From Magallana gigas (taxonomy: Eukaryota): a DNA stretch of 64,000 nt. Where the stretch lies: assembly GCF_963853765.1 (NCBI RefSeq), contig NC_088854.1, positions 32,364,001-32,428,000 of the forward strand. The letters run 5' to 3'. Of the stretch, positions 41,701 through 47,700 are shown one piece after another (position 1 is the stretch's first letter; each line of letters begins with the position of its first letter). Position numbers: made by a program.

Positions 41701-44700
41701 GTTTCTGTATGGGGTTTTTTCTGACTTAAAAATCAAGGCCATATTATGAAAGAAAATAATTGGTAAAAAGAGTTGAAAATTGTATGAGATGTGTAAGTTA
41801 TCATATTTTCTTAAATAACACATATGAAAGAAATAAGATTGGTAGAAAAGAATTAAAAAGGGTTGAAAATTATATGAGAATGAGATATCTAATTAAGATG
41901 TTTCACTGAATCAAATTTTCTAATTTGACATAGTTTAGGAATTTTGGTTTGATAGTTGGATCTTTTTTTAAAGCGCTTAGCCATAGCTCAGCGCTTTATT
42001 GTCGTTAGACTTCTACTTCCGGTGCATCAAATAACTGCCCCCTATGGACAAAAGTATCCATTATTCAAAATTGGTTAGGGAACCTGTTTCAGTGGTTTAT
42101 GCACATAACTGCACGGGCTATTGTGAATCGTACGGGCTATTGTGAATTTGATGTACGGGGCTTACAAACATCATTGCAGGGGGTGCCACGCAGTGATAAG
42201 GATATAGTGCGAATACAGAAGCTGAAATGTTATATACATATATCTGTTATATACATACAGAAGCTGGATTAGCGCTTTTCAGTACTATCAGTACTTTGAT
42301 TTTTAATTACAGAGCAGACAAGTGCAGACTACGACAGTGAACTTGAACTGTCCAGTTCCAGTGGACAAATGGAAGATGGCCAGAGTAGCCCTAATACTGG
42401 ATCCAGGTGTGTTTCTCTCACTTGTTTTGTTGTAAAAAGAGACATCTTTATCAAATTTTCATCTTTAATACCGGTAATGCGTTTCAGTACGTTGTTTCAC
42501 TGTTTTAGTATATATAAGTAAGAAAGGTGATACTCACAGTGATGACGTTTTTTTTTTAATATAAAAAGGTCTCCCTGAGGATGGTGTAAAGAAATCAAGG
42601 TCCTATTTGATGCTGATGAAGGCTCCCATGATGCCTATACAAGAAGAGGAATCCATTCGATCAGATGAGGAAGAAGAGGAACTAATTGAACTAGAACAGG
42701 GAGAAGAGATCGAGAACTCTGAGCAGTCTCAAATGTCCTACCGGCCAATGAGCCCCAAAGCCCCACCCCTGCCGCCAGGACTGGCCCTTCAGAAAGAACC
42801 GCCTATGGGTGGTGACCAAGCTTCATCATCTTCAAAGCAAGCAGGTGAAGCAAAACAGTCAAGTATCAAAGGTAGCAAGGACTCTGTATACAGCCAGGGC
42901 AAGTCAGAAGGAAAGAAAGAAAGTCGCACAGCCACACCTACAAAAGCCAGTGAAAGATCTGAACAGCAGTCACCAACGGAGGCAAAGCCTGGTTCCCGAC
43001 CCCCAACAAGGACTAGCGTGACCAGTAAGAAGTCGAAAGGAAAAGAAGAAAAGGTAGCTTCAGAGGAAGAGGTTAACGACAAGGGAAGTGTTACCAATAC
43101 CAGGCCTCGATCAGAGCATGAAGATCCAGTCACTCAGGTGGAGATTGAACACAGTGAGGATGAGGTTGGAGGGGACACTGAGAGAAAAACTCAACCGGTA
43201 AGACATCTGATTATGAGAACAAACAAACATAAAGTATTTTTTTATATGCCCTATTTGTATACTGCACTTCTGGTTTTTATTCATATATTTTTTAAAAAGT
43301 TTCTAATCATCAATAATTATTTTTAAATGGTTGGTTGATTTAATAGCTTATCTATAGAAATTAATCTTCAAGTACCGGTACTCATTATTTTTCATTCATA
43401 TACATGTGTATCATTTATTGAATAACCTCATTGTGACAATATTTTGTGGTGTTTTTAGCTCACCGAGACGAAGTCAAGGAGAGCTTATGCTATACCCTCG
43501 GCGTCGGCGGTGGCGTCGGCGTCGGCGTCGGCGTCCAGACCTGGTTAAAGTTTTTGTTGCAAGTCCTGTATCTAAGCTATTACTTGTCCTATCTTCACCA
43601 AACTTGCATGGATGATGCATCTGGACCTACTTATGGACTTGAAAGACTTGGATGCTGAATCTGGGTCCTAAATTTCAGATGCTGGAGGAGGTTAAGGTTG
43701 TTGGACCAGGTTAAAGTTTTTGTTGCAGGTGCCCTTTGATAGCAGTATCTTAGTTACTGCTGGTCTGTACTTCACCAAACTTGCATGGATGGTGTGCCTT
43801 ATGATACTGATGCACCAGACAGGCTTGAGTGCTGAATCTGAGCTATAGGTTTCGGATGCTGGAGGAGGTTAAGGTTTTTGGAGCAGGTTAAAGTTTTTGT
43901 TGCGGGTGCCCTTTGATAGCAATATCTAAGTTACTACTGGTCCTAACTTCACCAAACTTGTATGGATGATGCGTCTTATGATACTGATGCACCTGACAAG
44001 CTTGAATGCTGAATCTGAGCAATAGGTTTCGGATGCTGGAAGAGGTTAAGGTTTTTAGAGCTGGTTAAAGTTTTTGTTGCAGGTGCCCTCTGATGATTAA
44101 TCTTAGTTACTACTGGTCCTAACTTCACCAAACTTGTATGGATGGTGCGTCTTATGATACTGATGCACCTGACAAGCTTGAATGCTGAATCTGAGCAATA
44201 GGTTTCGGATGCTGGAAGAGGTTAAGGTTTTTAGAGCTGGTTAAGTTTTTGTTGCAGGTGCCCTCTGATGATTATATCTTAGTTACTACTGGTCCTAACT
44301 TCACCAAACTTGTATGGATGGTGCGTCTTATGATACTGATGCACCTGACAAGCTTGAATGCTGAATCTGAGCAATAGGTTTCGGATGCTGGAGGAGGTTA
44401 AGGTTTTAAGAGCTGGTTAGATAAAGTTTTTGAAACAGGTGCCCTCTGATGATGATATCTTAGTTAATACTTGTCCTTACTTCACCAGAATTCCATGGAT
44501 GGTGTGTCTTATGATACTGATGCACCTGACAGGCTTGAATGCATAGTCTGGTTTCGGATGCTGGATAAAGTTAAGTTTTTAGGAACAGGTCACATGTTTA
44601 ATAGATGATAGTACTATTTTAAACTTGCATAGTTGATTTAACTGTAATATGAATGAATCGCAGAGGTAGCTTCAGATGCAGAGCTTGATCTCCATTATCA

Positions 44701-47700
44701 AGGATGCTAAAAAATAAATCTTAGTTATTACTGGTCTTAACTTCGCCAAACTTGAATGGATGGTGTGTCTTATGATACAGATGCACCTGACAGGCATGGA
44801 TGCTGAATCTGAGCCATAGGTTGCGGATGCGGGAGGAAGTTAAGGTTTTAATTGCTAGTGCCCTCTGATGATGATATCTTAGTTATTACTGGTCCAAACT
44901 TCACCAAAATTGCATGGATGATGCGTCTTATGATACAAATGCACCTGATGGGCTTGAATGCTGAATCTGAGCCATAGGTTTCGGATGCTGGATGAGGTTT
45001 AGTTTTTTGGAACAGGTCACATGTTTTATAGATGATAGCTTGCATAGTTGATTTAACTTTATTATAAATTAAATGCAGAGGTTGCTTCAGAAGCAGAGCC
45101 TGATCTCCATTATCAAGGATGCTAAAGAAATCTCCTACCTCACTCAAACCAGCTCGATAGATAGATGTGTTTGTTGATAAATGATATAACATGATTCCTA
45201 TGATAAAGTATTGTATGATATGAAACAATATTGTTTGATATGATACAATATGATATCATATGTTATATTATAAAAAGTTATACGATACGATATGATATTG
45301 TATCAATTTTTTTGATATTTTATGATATGATTATGTATCATGATATTGTTATGTATAGTATTGTATATTATTATACAATATTGTATGATATTATATTGTA
45401 TTTTTAATTTATTATTTTATCACATGATACAATTACATAAGATATTGCAAAATATTATATTGTATCCTATGATACAATATTGTATATTCTATAATATTGT
45501 ATCATACAATATTGTATAATATGATATTGGTTTCAGTAATATAGAATTATATCACATGAAATTGTATTATATGATATTGTAATATTATTAATATAATATT
45601 GTATCATACGATAATGTATGATATGATATTGGTTTATATGATATATTATCATATCACATGAAATTGTATTATATGATATTGTAATATATTTTATTGTGTC
45701 ATATGATGCAATATGTATAATATAATAATGTATTTTATAATATTTTACCATATCACATAATATTGTATCATTTGATAAGATACAATGTTGGAATCAAATT
45801 ATATTGTATTATATGATATAATATCATATAATGTATGAAATATGTTTCAGTGTCATTCAATACAATATCATTCTATATTATACAATATAATATCATGTTT
45901 CAGTGTTATGATGTATTATGTAATATGATATTGTAATATGATACTATATTGTATTATATTTTAGGATATTGTATTATGTGATCAAATACAATAAGGTATA
46001 ACACAATACAATGTCATACCATATGTTACAATATCAAATCTCATTATTGTTTATTACGGTATTTTATTTATTATATGATATATATAATATTAGAAATATG
46101 ACATGATGCAATATTTAATTTTATATCATTGTATTGATTAACATATGAACATATGATTATCATAAAAAAATTTATCAGATGATATACGATATTTTGTCAA
46201 AACAGAATCCATGAATATCCAAGATCATAAAGTATGATTTTCATATAAAATGATAAAGGTGGTCTTATGAAGGTGATGTATCATAAGGGTGATGCTCCGT
46301 CTCGGTGAGCTTAGTAATCTATGATTACCTATGTTTTTAATATGAAACTGTTCAGGTTTCTAACAGTCTTTATATTAACATTCCAGGCTAGTGACAGAAG
46401 TTCAGAAGAAAATCAGAATCAAAATGCAATGAAAAAATCTGTATCAAGCTCATCTCTGAAAAAAGGAGAATCAACACAGAGTTTGAAAAAAGGAGAATCA
46501 ACACAAAGTTTAAAGAAGGGGTCATCAACACAGAGTTTGAAAAAGGGGGAATCAACACAGAGTTTGAAAAAGGGGGAATCAACACAGAGTTTAAAGAAAG
46601 GTGAATCAACACAGAGTTTAAAGAAAGGGGAATCAACACAGAGTTTAAAGAAAGGGGAATCAACACAGAGTTTAAAGAAAGGGGAATCAACTCAAAGTTT
46701 GAAGAAAGGTAGTTCAACACAGAGTCTTACAAAACAACCATCAACCCAGAACTTGAAAAAGGGAACATCTGGGGAAAGTTTATACAATGCAAAATCTAAG
46801 GAAAGTTTGAAGAAAGGTACTTCAAGCGAAAATCTCAAGACCACAAGGTCAAAAGACAGTTCTGAAGGTCAACCCTCTGAAACCTTACAGAAATCAAAAT
46901 CTAAAGAGAGTTTGAAGAAGTCATCTTCTGCAGATGAAGCCAAAGAGTCTTCAGAGCCACAGGCCACAAACAGGGAGTCGGAAAAATCAAAATCTTCCCC
47001 ACCACCCACTAACCGCAGTGTGGAGGAGAAACAGAATTCAGAATCCCAGAAAGAGGCTACAGCAACTACTGATGATGCTACCAACCAAAAACAGGAGGAG
47101 AGTGTAGCAGACGACAAGCAAGCAGAGACCAGCAAAGAGCAAGAACCAGCTAAACAGGAGGAGACAACTGGTGCCAAAGACAAGGATGAGAGTGATAAGG
47201 ATATGCTGTGATCTTACATCAAAATTTGATGGATATTTTTTGTTTACATGAACTGCCATTCTTATTTTGATTTGTGAAGATCCAACTTCTCTTTGAGGAA
47301 AAATAATATTTAGAACCATGATATGTTATTGATTATTTTATCTCTTATGTTGTTGCGTCATTTTATTGAACAAAATATTTCAACAAATGACATATTAAAA
47401 AAAAATGTGCTTTGTTGTTGATAAATTTACATTTATATAAAAATAATTATTACCAAAAAATTGTTGTAGTTATGTGCCTTAAAGTTCATAGTTAATTATA
47501 CATGGTATTTATTTTAAATAAGCATACCGTCCAAAACTTGCTGAATTTTACACTATAAACAGAAGTGTTTACAAGTGTTTCCTCATTTTAATTGATGATG
47601 ATATCTAGCTACTTCCGTCCAAAGTCCAAACATTATTTTTGAAAACTGCTGATCTAAGCAAAATAACCTCTACATTTATTATTTTCTCATACTTGTCAAA

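What the first reader, a model, noticed from the sequence alone, without database searches (positions are those of the whole stretch)
42380..47211. ~480-aa disordered C-terminal extension beyond the usual dynein terminus
Seen: after KWKMARVALILDP, where dynein heavy chains normally stop within a few residues, the frame continues through two large exons rich in S, K, E, T and Q. From the linker motif onward the protein is about 4,400 aa, well over a thousand residues more than the equivalent span of typical dyneins (estimate from memory). Inference: an added tether or second microtubule-contacting tail.
Basis: partly seen in the sequence, partly recalled or inferred. Interest (0 to 1): 0.65.

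Follow-up and report, generated by a model that had tools for sequence, protein, structure and literature searches.

The report
Disordered tail on an orphan dynein
A divergent, probably non-motile dynein motor gene carries about 484 extra floppy, charged residues after its normal end, a trait already described for one little-studied class of animal dyneins, so it is real but not new in kind.

Summary
After ...KWKMARVALILDP (last dynein exon 42313-42406) a strong donor joins in phase to two open exons, 42569-43197 and 46387-47208, with a TGA stop at 47209-11. That adds 484 residues rich in S/K/E/T/Q. Both exons are open beyond chance (0 of 2000 shuffles each). They carry no Pfam family, and the single-sequence AlphaFold2 models have low confidence and no secondary structure. 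Ten LKKGESTQS repeat units differ almost only at synonymous sites (pN/pS 0.08), so exon B is translated in this frame.

The host gene is an orphan-type dynein heavy chain. It has weak per-exon Pfam and PDB matches, an AAA1 Walker B with Glu changed to Asn, and roughly 1,000 extra residues inside the motor.

Kollmar (2016) described metazoan class-13 dyneins as having longer AAA5 domains and unique low-complexity C-terminal extensions. This gene fits that description, although I could not test class membership by phylogeny. The "microtubule tether" reading is untested.

Two points remain open. Skipping exon A would give ...ILDPG-stop, a canonical-length isoform. A separate tail-only gene is not excluded. 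No transcript, proteome or eukaryotic sequence database was available.

The parts
52..42406 (+). Body of a divergent dynein heavy chain, running from the linker (DHC_N2 profile position 167) to the C-sequence. The N-terminal tail lies outside the window.
   Evidence: Per-exon Pfam matches appear in domain order: DHC_N2, AAA_6, AAA_7, AAA_8, MT, AAA_9, Dynein_heavy, AAA_lid_11, Dynein_C. Matches were found for 7 of 10 ORFs, 5 of 10, 1 of 5 and 1 of 10. Several fall below the gathering score. PDB matches to dynein chains reach only 20-51 bits per exon.
9518..9700 (+). AAA1 exon with a Walker B motif that lacks the catalytic Glu (D-N-Y-N-H where solved dyneins have D-E-F-N-R).
   Evidence: The HMMER alignments to two solved dynein chains show it. 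The Walker A reads G-A-M-D-T-G-K-F across exons 6759-6902 and 9112 onward. It fits the recalled consensus GxxxxGK but has F where S/T is expected.
42313..42406 (+). Last canonical dynein exon, ending ...KWKMARVALILDP plus the first base of a split codon.
   Evidence: Its acceptor scores 7.02 (72nd percentile of 64 model acceptors). Its donor scores 5.79 (59th percentile of 63 model donors, top 1.6% of all GT in the window). Only 67 of 2254 non-exon 60-nt stretches hold a GT that good.
42407..42568 (+). A 162-nt intron. If it is retained, the frame reads GVFLSLVLL and stops at 42433-35. It holds TATA-like words at 42509, 42511 and 42560.
   Evidence: There are 43 TATAWAWR words on the + strand of the window, so 0.11 are expected per 162 nt. 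No AATAAA or ATTAAA lies on the + strand between 42401 and 44713.
42569..43197 (+). Extension exon A, 629 nt (2 bases plus 209 codons). It has an acidic block, then a K-A-P-P-L-P-P proline motif, then a basic S/K-rich stretch, then an acidic end.
   Evidence: The frame is open in 0 of 2000 shuffles. Codon log-odds is 0.378 per codon with 0 stops, against 10 and 17 stops in the other + frames. The acceptor is weak at 2.02 (3rd percentile). The donor scores 5.71 (59th percentile). My gene-finder chose this exon without having been trained on it. No Pfam, PDB or Atlas match was found. AF2 mean pLDDT is 52.2 with no secondary structure.
43198..46386 (+). A 3.2-kb intron full of satellites.
   Evidence: Tandem Repeats Finder reports a 177-bp unit x 5.5 at 43570-44542, a 158-bp unit x 1.9 at 44720-45014, and AT-rich minisatellites at 45177-45979.
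46387..47211 (+). Extension exon B, 274 codons plus a TGA stop at 47209-11.
   Evidence: The acceptor TTCCAG| scores 5.08 (36th percentile of model acceptors, top 3.6% of all AG) and is the best phase-0 acceptor in the ORF. The frame is open in 0 of 2000 shuffles. AF2 mean pLDDT is 45.0, and 0 of 274 residues reach 70. No Pfam match. The Atlas gave no usable hit.
46456..46725 (+). Ten 27-nt units encoding LKKGESTQS (8 units) or LKKGSSTQS (2 units), followed by three degenerate units up to 46806.
   Evidence: The 8 identical peptides come in 6 nucleotide versions. Of 10 variable columns, 7 are third positions. pS is 0.545, pN is 0.042 and pN/pS is 0.077 over 45 pairs.
46389..46391 (+). A TAG that becomes in-frame if exon A is skipped. 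G(42406) plus GC(46387-88) makes Gly, and the stop follows.
   Evidence: Read directly. The product would end ...ILDPG, a canonical-length isoform.
47394..47399 (+). First poly(A)-signal-like hexamer (ATTAAA) after the stop. AATAAA follows at 47990 and 48032.

Best explanation
The two exons are genuine coding exons. [quoted passage not shown] The gene fits the published description of metazoan class-13 dynein heavy chains (enlarged AAA5 region plus a low-complexity C-terminal extension).

Shown here:
- The open frames are beyond chance.
- The donors are strong and in phase.
- The repeat peptide is under purifying selection.
- The tail has no Pfam family, and its single-sequence AF2 models have low confidence and no secondary structure, which fits disorder.
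- The AAA1 Walker B is degenerate.
- The motor carries about 1,000 extra residues, about 380 of them between the end of the stalk match and AAA6.

Inferred:
- The tail leaves the C-sequence (CT-cap) face of the AAA ring as a flexible polyampholyte. Its layout is an acidic block, a proline motif, a basic S/K stretch, ten net-positive LKKGESTQS units and an acidic end.
- My preferred mechanism is a multivalent, weak, probably phosphorylation-tuned electrostatic contact with acidic partners such as tubulin C-terminal tails or a neighbouring chain. I put that at about 0.25, ahead of a purely passive spacer role.
For: Splice and frame:
- Donor 42406 scores 5.79 and donor 43197 scores 5.71, both at the 59th percentile of the gene's own 63 donors. 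Acceptor 46387 scores 5.08.
- A donor this good occurs in 67 of 2254 random 60-nt non-exon stretches, and the phase also fits.
- The last dynein exon has no stop of its own.
- A gene-finder trained only on exons upstream of 42407 continues through 42569-43197 to the stop at 47211. The maximum gain was 15.2 in 100 shuffles (0 of 100 reach the real value) and 41.2 in 16 real downstream chunks (0 of 16).

Coding:
- Shuffles reach the open frame 0 of 2000 times for each exon.
- Frame-0 codon score is best for exon A, at 0.378 against a gene median of 0.444.
- The repeat units have pN/pS 0.077.
- There is no canonical poly(A) hexamer from 42401 to 44713. The first one after the final stop is at 47394.

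Disorder:
- AF2 mean pLDDT is 52.2 and 45.0, with no secondary structure.
- No Pfam match was found.

Same flavour inside the gene:
- Polar low-complexity exons lie at 28386-28560, 32396-32588, 3538-3726, 2811-3058 and 11021-11233.

Class:
- Here the excess over DNAH9 is +193 residues from stalk end to AAA5 and +190 from AAA5 to AAA6.
- DNAH9 or DNAH17 is the top PDB hit for 4 of 5 exons tested (not).
Against: - No transcript, peptide or orthologue was seen, because none of the available tools reaches eukaryotic data.
- Acceptor 42569 is weak: 2.02, the 3rd percentile of the gene's 64 acceptors, and 20% of all AG in the window score as well.
- The repeat part of exon B has a slightly negative codon score of -0.023, and frame +2 scores higher there. 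My gene-finder preferred 43459-43543 plus 46934-47211 over 46387-47211 by 14 units.
- TATA-like words sit in the 162-nt intron, and ATG codons start at 42610, so a tail-only transcript is possible.
- Class 13 is defined by phylogeny and by a class-4-like N-terminal tail. The tail is outside the window and no class-13 sequence was available.
- One of the 5 exons tested has an inner-arm I1-beta chain as its top PDB hit.
- The lack of the Walker B glutamate is what the DNAHX preprint reports for DNHD1 (class 11), so class 11 is not excluded.
- The AF2 runs used single sequences, which give low confidence for many proteins.
- The joined protein was never searched or folded; that step was left out.
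Confidence: 0.6

Rival explanations
1. Exon A is a frame-switching cassette. Most transcripts skip exon A (629 nt, not a multiple of 3) and join 42406 to 46387, which reads Gly then TAG. That yields a canonical-length dynein ending ...ILDPG. The 484-residue tail is then a minor or tissue-regulated isoform.
For: The codons follow directly from the letters. Acceptor 42569 is weak (3rd percentile) while acceptor 46387 is ordinary (36th percentile), which is the usual pattern for an alternative exon. The stop of the skipped form would lie in the last exon.
Against: A stop at the first codon of an off-frame is not rare. The off-frames of exon B hold 15 and 16 stops in 274 codons, about 5.6% per codon. 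Exon A and the repeats of exon B are clearly kept open and, for the repeats, under purifying selection, so the long form must be made in meaningful amounts.
Confidence: 0.2
2. Exons A and B form a separate downstream gene encoding a disordered protein of about 470 residues that starts at ATG 42610. Its promoter lies in the 162-nt interval. The dynein ends by read-through at ...ILDPGVFLSLVLL-stop (42433-35).
For: TATA-like words lie at 42509 and 42511, about 100 nt before the first ATG of the ORF, where 0.11 are expected per 162 nt. Four ATG codons lie at 42610-42639. Acceptor 42569 is weak. A read-through stop sits 9 codons after ILDP.
Against: The donor exactly at the canonical end is strong (a GT this good occurs in 67 of 2254 random stretches), and its phase matches the ORF. 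The ORF opens only 4 nt before the proposed acceptor. There is no poly(A) hexamer for the dynein before 44713. All four ATGs have poor or middling context by eye. There is published precedent for such tails on class-13 dyneins.
Confidence: 0.13
3. The open frames are accidents of purine-rich, T-poor satellite-like sequence and are not translated.
For: T content is only 16% in both exons. Several long open frames also occur on the minus strand. Exon B holds a 27-nt tandem array.
Against: 0 of 2000 composition-preserving shuffles reach the observed frames. The other five frames hold 4-29 stops. Differences between repeat units are concentrated at synonymous sites, with pN/pS 0.077.
Confidence: 0.02

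Closest known systems
Class-13 dynein heavy chains (DHC13) of Kollmar 2016, Mol Biol Evol, PMC5100056
   Same: They are a metazoan-restricted orphan class with very low similarity to the nine classical classes. They have a longer AAA5 domain and a unique low-complexity C-terminal extension after the C-sequence. All three anatomical traits are seen here.
   Different: Membership is phylogenetic and was not tested. The class-4-like N-terminal tail is outside the window. The paper says the extensions show no conservation across homologs beyond composition, whereas within this one gene a nine-residue unit is kept under purifying selection. The paper's supplements, which hold the sequences and trees, were closed.
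DNAHX (sea urchin XP_041462850) of Chai et al. 2025 preprint, PMC11785096. By my inference this equals Kollmar's class 12.
   Same: It is an unusually long heavy chain (5,272 aa) with many disordered insertions and a non-conserved AAA1 site, and it is proposed to be non-motile.
   Different: DNAHX keeps its Walker B and has insertions that disrupt the stalk and microtubule-binding domain. This gene has lost the Walker B glutamate. It also has a stalk/MTBD exon that matches Pfam MT at 1.2e-15 and the solved DNAH9 MTBD 2rr7 at 7.8e-12. No C-terminal extension is mentioned in the parts of the preprint I read.
DNHD1 (class 11 in Kollmar's table)
   Same: It is an orphan heavy chain with multiple disordered insertions in the motor and lacks catalytic Walker B residues.
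   Different: Nothing I could read says whether DNHD1 has a C-terminal extension. No DNHD1 chain appeared in the PDB results. No sequence comparison was possible. The AJHG paper on DNHD1 is not held.
Class-10 fungal dyneins with a 1,500-residue C-terminal WD40 tail (Kollmar 2016)
   Same: They also carry a large addition after the C-sequence of the motor.
   Different: That tail is made of folded WD40 repeats and is found in chytrid fungi. This one has no domain match and no predicted structure.
Lysine-rich repeat regions of microtubule-associated proteins (K-K-E type repeats; recalled, no call)
   Same: Both are short, tandem, net-positive K-K-x-E units in a disordered region.
   Different: This is a resemblance of composition only. 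No homology was found and no binding test was done.

Membership tests
Dynein heavy chain superfamily | Linker, six AAA+ modules, stalk/MTBD and C-sequence in order on one strand | tested here: met
   Per-exon Pfam matches appear in order from DHC_N2 to Dynein_C. PDB dynein chains are the top hits for 5 of 5 motor exons.
Class-13 DHC (Kollmar 2016) | Low-complexity C-terminal extension after the C-sequence | tested here: met
   484 residues follow a point within about 7 profile positions of the end of Dynein_C. This is conditional on the splice, which is inferred from signals only.
Class-13 DHC (Kollmar 2016) | Longer AAA5 domain | tested here: met
   The excess over DNAH9 is +193 residues between the stalk match and the AAA5 match, and +190 between the AAA5 and AAA6 matches. 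This depends on an approximate exon model.
Class-13 DHC (Kollmar 2016) | N-terminal tail homologous to class 4 (DNAH9/11/17) | not testable with these tools
   The tail lies upstream of the window. As a weak proxy, 4 of 5 motor exons have DNAH9 or DNAH17 as the best PDB hit, and 1 of 5 has I1-beta.
Class-13 DHC (Kollmar 2016) | Groups with class-13 sequences in a motor-domain tree | not testable with these tools
   No class-13 sequence was available.
Class-12 DHC / DNAHX | Aberrant stalk without a typical microtubule-binding site or coiled coil | tested here: not met
   Exon 26759-27235 matches Pfam MT positions 155-244 at 1.2e-15 and the DNAH9 MTBD 2rr7 at 7.8e-12.
Class-12 DHC / DNAHX | [quoted passage not shown] | tested here: not met
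   Walker B reads D-N-Y-N-H here, against D-E-F-N-R in solved chains.
Class-11 DHC / DNHD1 | Catalytic Walker B residues of AAA1 missing, with disordered insertions in the motor | tested here: met
   These traits are not exclusive to DNHD1, and orthology was not tested.

The most novel reading that the evidence does not exclude
Exon A is a frame-switching cassette that toggles this class-13-like, catalytically dead heavy chain between a canonical end (...ILDPG) and a 484-residue tail. The tail's selected LKKGESTQS units form a phosphorylation-tuned second contact with tubulin tails. The chain itself, with its canonical extended stalk, is the unidentified partner of DNAHX (class 12) in the dynein-X heterodimer, as Kollmar's predicted pairing of classes 12 and 13 would suggest.
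Probability: 0.07. Interest if true: 0.65.

Novelty: new member of a known kind. Interest (0 to 1): 0.3.

Why it matters
Orphan dyneins (classes 11-13, DNHD1, DNAHX) are only now being recognised as functional, probably non-motile parts of sperm and ciliary machinery, and nothing is known about what the class-13 tail does.

This locus offers a concrete handle:
- a tail with a nine-residue unit under clear purifying selection;
- defined charge blocks;
- a possible splice switch between tailed and untailed forms.

If confirmed by RNA and peptides, it would give testable constructs (tail deletion, repeat-number variants) for asking whether such tails anchor, space or regulate a dead motor. As a genome finding it is mostly a good annotation: gene predictors are likely to cut this gene at ILDP or to call the tail a separate gene.

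Tried and rejected
- Pfam on both extension exons at E up to 1 gave nothing.
- PDB sequence search gave nothing for exon A.
- PDB sequence search for exon B matched a LIM-domain protein of axoneme entry 9e5c (E 7.9e-07) and spt5 (E 0.025). The alignment of the first shows a period-9 repeat lining up with another period-9 repeat with almost no identities. I rejected it as a repeat artefact.
- The ESM Atlas gave no usable hit for either exon. One search failed because the machine was busy, and I repeated it unchanged.
- The last two dynein exons alone gave no dynein match in PDB or Pfam. 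They are too short.
- Minus-strand ORFs under both exons, the ORFs in the satellite intron and three downstream ORFs had no Pfam match (9 of 10 queries empty).
- Rfam found no family in the window.
- A 23-nt Alu word found 0 matches at up to 3 mismatches. GC is 29-42%, and motor exons match human dynein chains only weakly, at 20-51 bits per exon. I therefore did not take the contig for human.
I replaced it with a stricter, self-trained version.
- The 85-nt exon 43459-43543 that the gene-finder inserts is probably spurious. Its acceptor scores 2.89 and it lies on a TCGGCG microsatellite.
- Literature follow-up on class 13 found nothing beyond Kollmar 2016. The search for 'DNAHX' found only the preprint. 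The search for 'dynein heavy chain' + 'C-terminal extension' + 'low complexity' found only Kollmar. The search for 'DHC13' + 'DHC12' + 'dynein' found 5 papers. The other 4, judged from the listing alone, appear to use these as Chlamydomonas gene names.
- PMC8764202 (DNHD1, AJHG) is not held.
- Not used: genome contigs, which holds bacteria and archaea only, and complex prediction, because no binding claim is made.
- The joined spliced protein was not searched or folded.

Full report
**What is there**

The window is eukaryotic, intron-rich DNA without any N and with GC of 29-42%. On the + strand, from position 52 to 42406, per-exon Pfam searches find the dynein heavy chain domains in their proper order: DHC_N2, AAA_6, AAA_7, AAA_8, MT, AAA_9, Dynein_heavy, AAA_lid_11 and Dynein_C.
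- Matches were found for 7 of 10 ORFs, 5 of 10, 1 of 5 and 1 of 10.
- All matches are weak (E from 1e-4 to 1e-16), and several are below Pfam's gathering score.
- Against solved structures, single exons reach only 20-51 bits to any dynein chain.

I did not take the contig for human, for three reasons. A 23-nt Alu word has 0 matches at up to 3 mismatches in 64 kb. The sequence is AT-rich with many minisatellites. The motor exons match human dynein chains only weakly (20-51 bits per exon).

The joined protein was never searched or folded. This limits what can be said about the exact end of the C-sequence and about class membership.

**The observation**

KWKMARVALILDP is encoded at 42367-42405, in an exon that runs from 42313 to a CAG|GTGTGT donor at 42406|42407.
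- Base 42406 plus 42569-70 gives Gly.
- The frame is then open for 209 codons to CCG|GTAAGA at 43197.
- It resumes in phase 0 after TTCCAG at 46387 for 274 codons, to TGA at 47209-11.
- That is 484 residues after ILDP.
Exon A is E/S/K/P-rich and exon B is S/K/E/T/Q-rich. Hydrophobic residues are 15.8% and 8.8%, against 38.0% in 911 residues of Pfam-matched dynein stretches.

The canonical C-sequence ends about here. Dynein_C profile positions 71-136, 137-186 and 189-232 of 309 are matched by exons at 40186-40398, 40749-40979 and 41258-41392. That leaves 77 positions for the roughly 70 residues of the last two exons. Those two exons are too short to match anything by themselves.

**More than chance**

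- Dinucleotide-preserving shuffles never reach the observed open frames: 0 of 2000 for exon A, 0 of 2000 for exon B, and 1 of 2000 for the non-repeat part of B.
- The other five frames hold 4-29 stops.
- The strongest evidence is in the tandem array (27 nt x 11.5).
  - Ten units at 46456-46725 encode LKKGESTQS eight times, in six nucleotide versions, and LKKGSSTQS twice, through two different serine codons.
  - Of 10 variable columns, 7 are third positions.
  - pS is 0.545 and pN is 0.042, giving pN/pS of 0.077 over 45 pairs.
  - The pairs are not independent and gene conversion is possible, but the pattern means the array is translated in this frame and the peptide is kept by selection.

**Same gene or not**

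I wrote a small exon-chaining gene-finder. It was seeded with the Pfam-matched stretches and re-trained only on exons upstream of 42407. It yields 75 exons and about 4,390 codons, and on its own it continues 42313-42406 to 42569-43197 and ends at 47211.

Scored with the gene's own splice matrices:

| Site | Score | Rank among the gene's own sites | Rank among all GT or AG in the window |
|---|---|---|---|
| Donor 42406 | 5.79 | 59th percentile of 63 donors | top 1.6% |
| Donor 43197 | 5.71 | 59th percentile of 63 donors | top 1.8% |
| Acceptor 46387 | 5.08 | 36th percentile of 64 acceptors | top 3.6% |
| Acceptor 42569 | 2.02 | 3rd percentile of 64 acceptors | 20% score as well |

- By eye, acceptor 42569 follows a T10 tract and a branch-point-like CTCAC.
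- A donor as good as 42406 occurs in 67 of 2254 random 60-nt non-exon stretches.
The maximum was 15.2 in 100 shuffles and 41.2 in 16 real downstream chunks, and none reach the real value.
- No AATAAA or ATTAAA lies between 42401 and 44713. After the final stop, ATTAAA is at 47394.

Against this:
- TATA-like words sit at 42509 and 42511 in the 162-nt intron, where 0.11 are expected.
- ATGs begin at 42610.
- The gene-finder slightly prefers a later acceptor (46934) because the repeat scores poorly under the codon model. I keep 46387 because the selected repeats must be exonic and because 46387 is the only good phase-0 acceptor upstream of them.
- The gene-finder is imperfect. Exon 9112-9388 runs through a GA microsatellite, where an ACAG|GTCAGT donor would give the expected motif.

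Exon A is 629 nt, which is not a multiple of three. If it is skipped, G(42406) + GC(46387-88) reads Gly and 46389-91 is TAG. The product would end ...ILDPG, a canonical length. With the weak acceptor of exon A, this looks like a possible cassette switch. A stop there is also about a 5.6% chance event.

**What kind of dynein**

- The AAA1 Walker B reads D-N-Y-N-H where solved dyneins have D-E-F-N-R (alignments).
- The Walker A reads G-A-M-D-T-G-K-F, with F at the S/T position (sequence; consensus recalled).
- The stalk/MTBD exon is ordinary: Pfam MT at 1.2e-15 and the DNAH9 MTBD 2rr7 at 7.8e-12.
- Anchored on DNAH9 chain 8j07_n9, the model has about 4,053 residues where DNAH9 has 3,026. The excess is +546 before the stalk, +193 from stalk end to AAA5, +190 from AAA5 to AAA6 and +97 after AAA6.
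- Several internal exons are as polar as the tail.

**Literature**

- Kollmar 2016 (PMC5100056; passages and section 9 read) defines metazoan classes 11 (human DNHD1), 12 and 13.
  - Class 13 has class-4-like tails.
  - The paper proposes that classes 12 and 13 pair.
- Chai et al. 2025 (PMC11785096; abstract, sections 6, 10, 11, 15, 16 and passages read) describe DNAHX.
  - It is long, insertion-rich and non-motile. It keeps its Walker B, has a disrupted stalk, and pairs with an unidentified chain that has a canonical stalk.
  - They note that DNHD1 lacks catalytic Walker B residues.
- This gene fails two DNAHX traits, fits the class-13 anatomy and shares the Walker B loss with DNHD1.
- DNAH9 or DNAH17 tops 4 of 5 exon searches, and I1-beta tops the fifth.
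- Class 13 is my best assignment, at about 0.5. It is untested by phylogeny.

**How it likely works**

- Single-sequence AF2 gives mean pLDDT of 52.2 and 45.0 with no secondary structure. Single-sequence mode is a caveat.
- Charge in 30-residue windows:
  - Exon A: 0, -11, +1, +3, +2, +2, -8.
  - Exon B: +1, +4, +5, +3, +3, +4, -1, -5, -6, 0.
- The tail hangs from the CT-cap, which the preprint says modulates the mechanochemical cycle.
- I infer a flexible, charge-patterned, S/T-rich tail making weak multivalent contacts, most plausibly with acidic tubulin tails or a neighbouring chain, on a motor that probably cannot hydrolyse ATP at AAA1. No call tests this.

**Verdict**

This is a new member of a known kind, and its interest is modest.

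Noticed in passing
window 6759-6902, 9112-9240, 9518-9700: The AAA1 site is degenerate. Walker A reads G-A-M-D-T-G-K-F, with F at the S/T position. Walker B reads D-N-Y-N-H, with the catalytic Glu replaced by Asn. This suggests a motor that cannot hydrolyse ATP at its main site.
   Followed up: partly
window 43570-44542 and 44720-45014: A 177-bp satellite (5.5 copies, 89% matches) and a related 158-bp pair lie inside the last intron. Their minus-strand ORFs have no Pfam match.
   Followed up: partly
window 45177-45979: A dense run of AT-rich minisatellites (periods 10-20 and 102) lies in the same intron.
   Followed up: no
window about 9290-9350 and about 54150-54200: GA/TC microsatellites read as ERERER in open frames. 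The first misled my gene-finder into over-extending exon 9112-9388. The likely true donor is ACAG|GTCAGT, just after ...MAAT.
   Followed up: partly
window 2811-3058, 3538-3726, 11021-11233, 28386-28560, 32396-32588: Internal exons of the motor are as polar and low in complexity as the tail (70-90% S/T/P/Q/G/K/E/D/N/R). They account for much of the roughly 1,000-residue excess over DNAH9.
   Followed up: partly
window 47212-64000: No open frame above 137 codons lies on either strand, and the 3 ORFs tested had no Pfam match. No next gene is visible for 16.8 kb after the stop.
   Followed up: partly
literature (PMC5100056 versus PMC11785096): DNAHX, presented as novel in 2025, resembles Kollmar's 2016 class 12. 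That class arose in the ancestor of choanoflagellates and animals, is related to the DNAH5/8 class and has an aberrant stalk. Kollmar's predicted class 12 + class 13 heterodimer parallels the unidentified partner in dynein-X. This is my inference from passages, not a tested equivalence.
   Followed up: no
window 42750-42790: Exon A holds a K-A-P-P-L-P-P stretch that fits the recalled class I SH3-ligand pattern (+xxPxxP), set between the acidic block and the basic S/K stretch.
   Followed up: no
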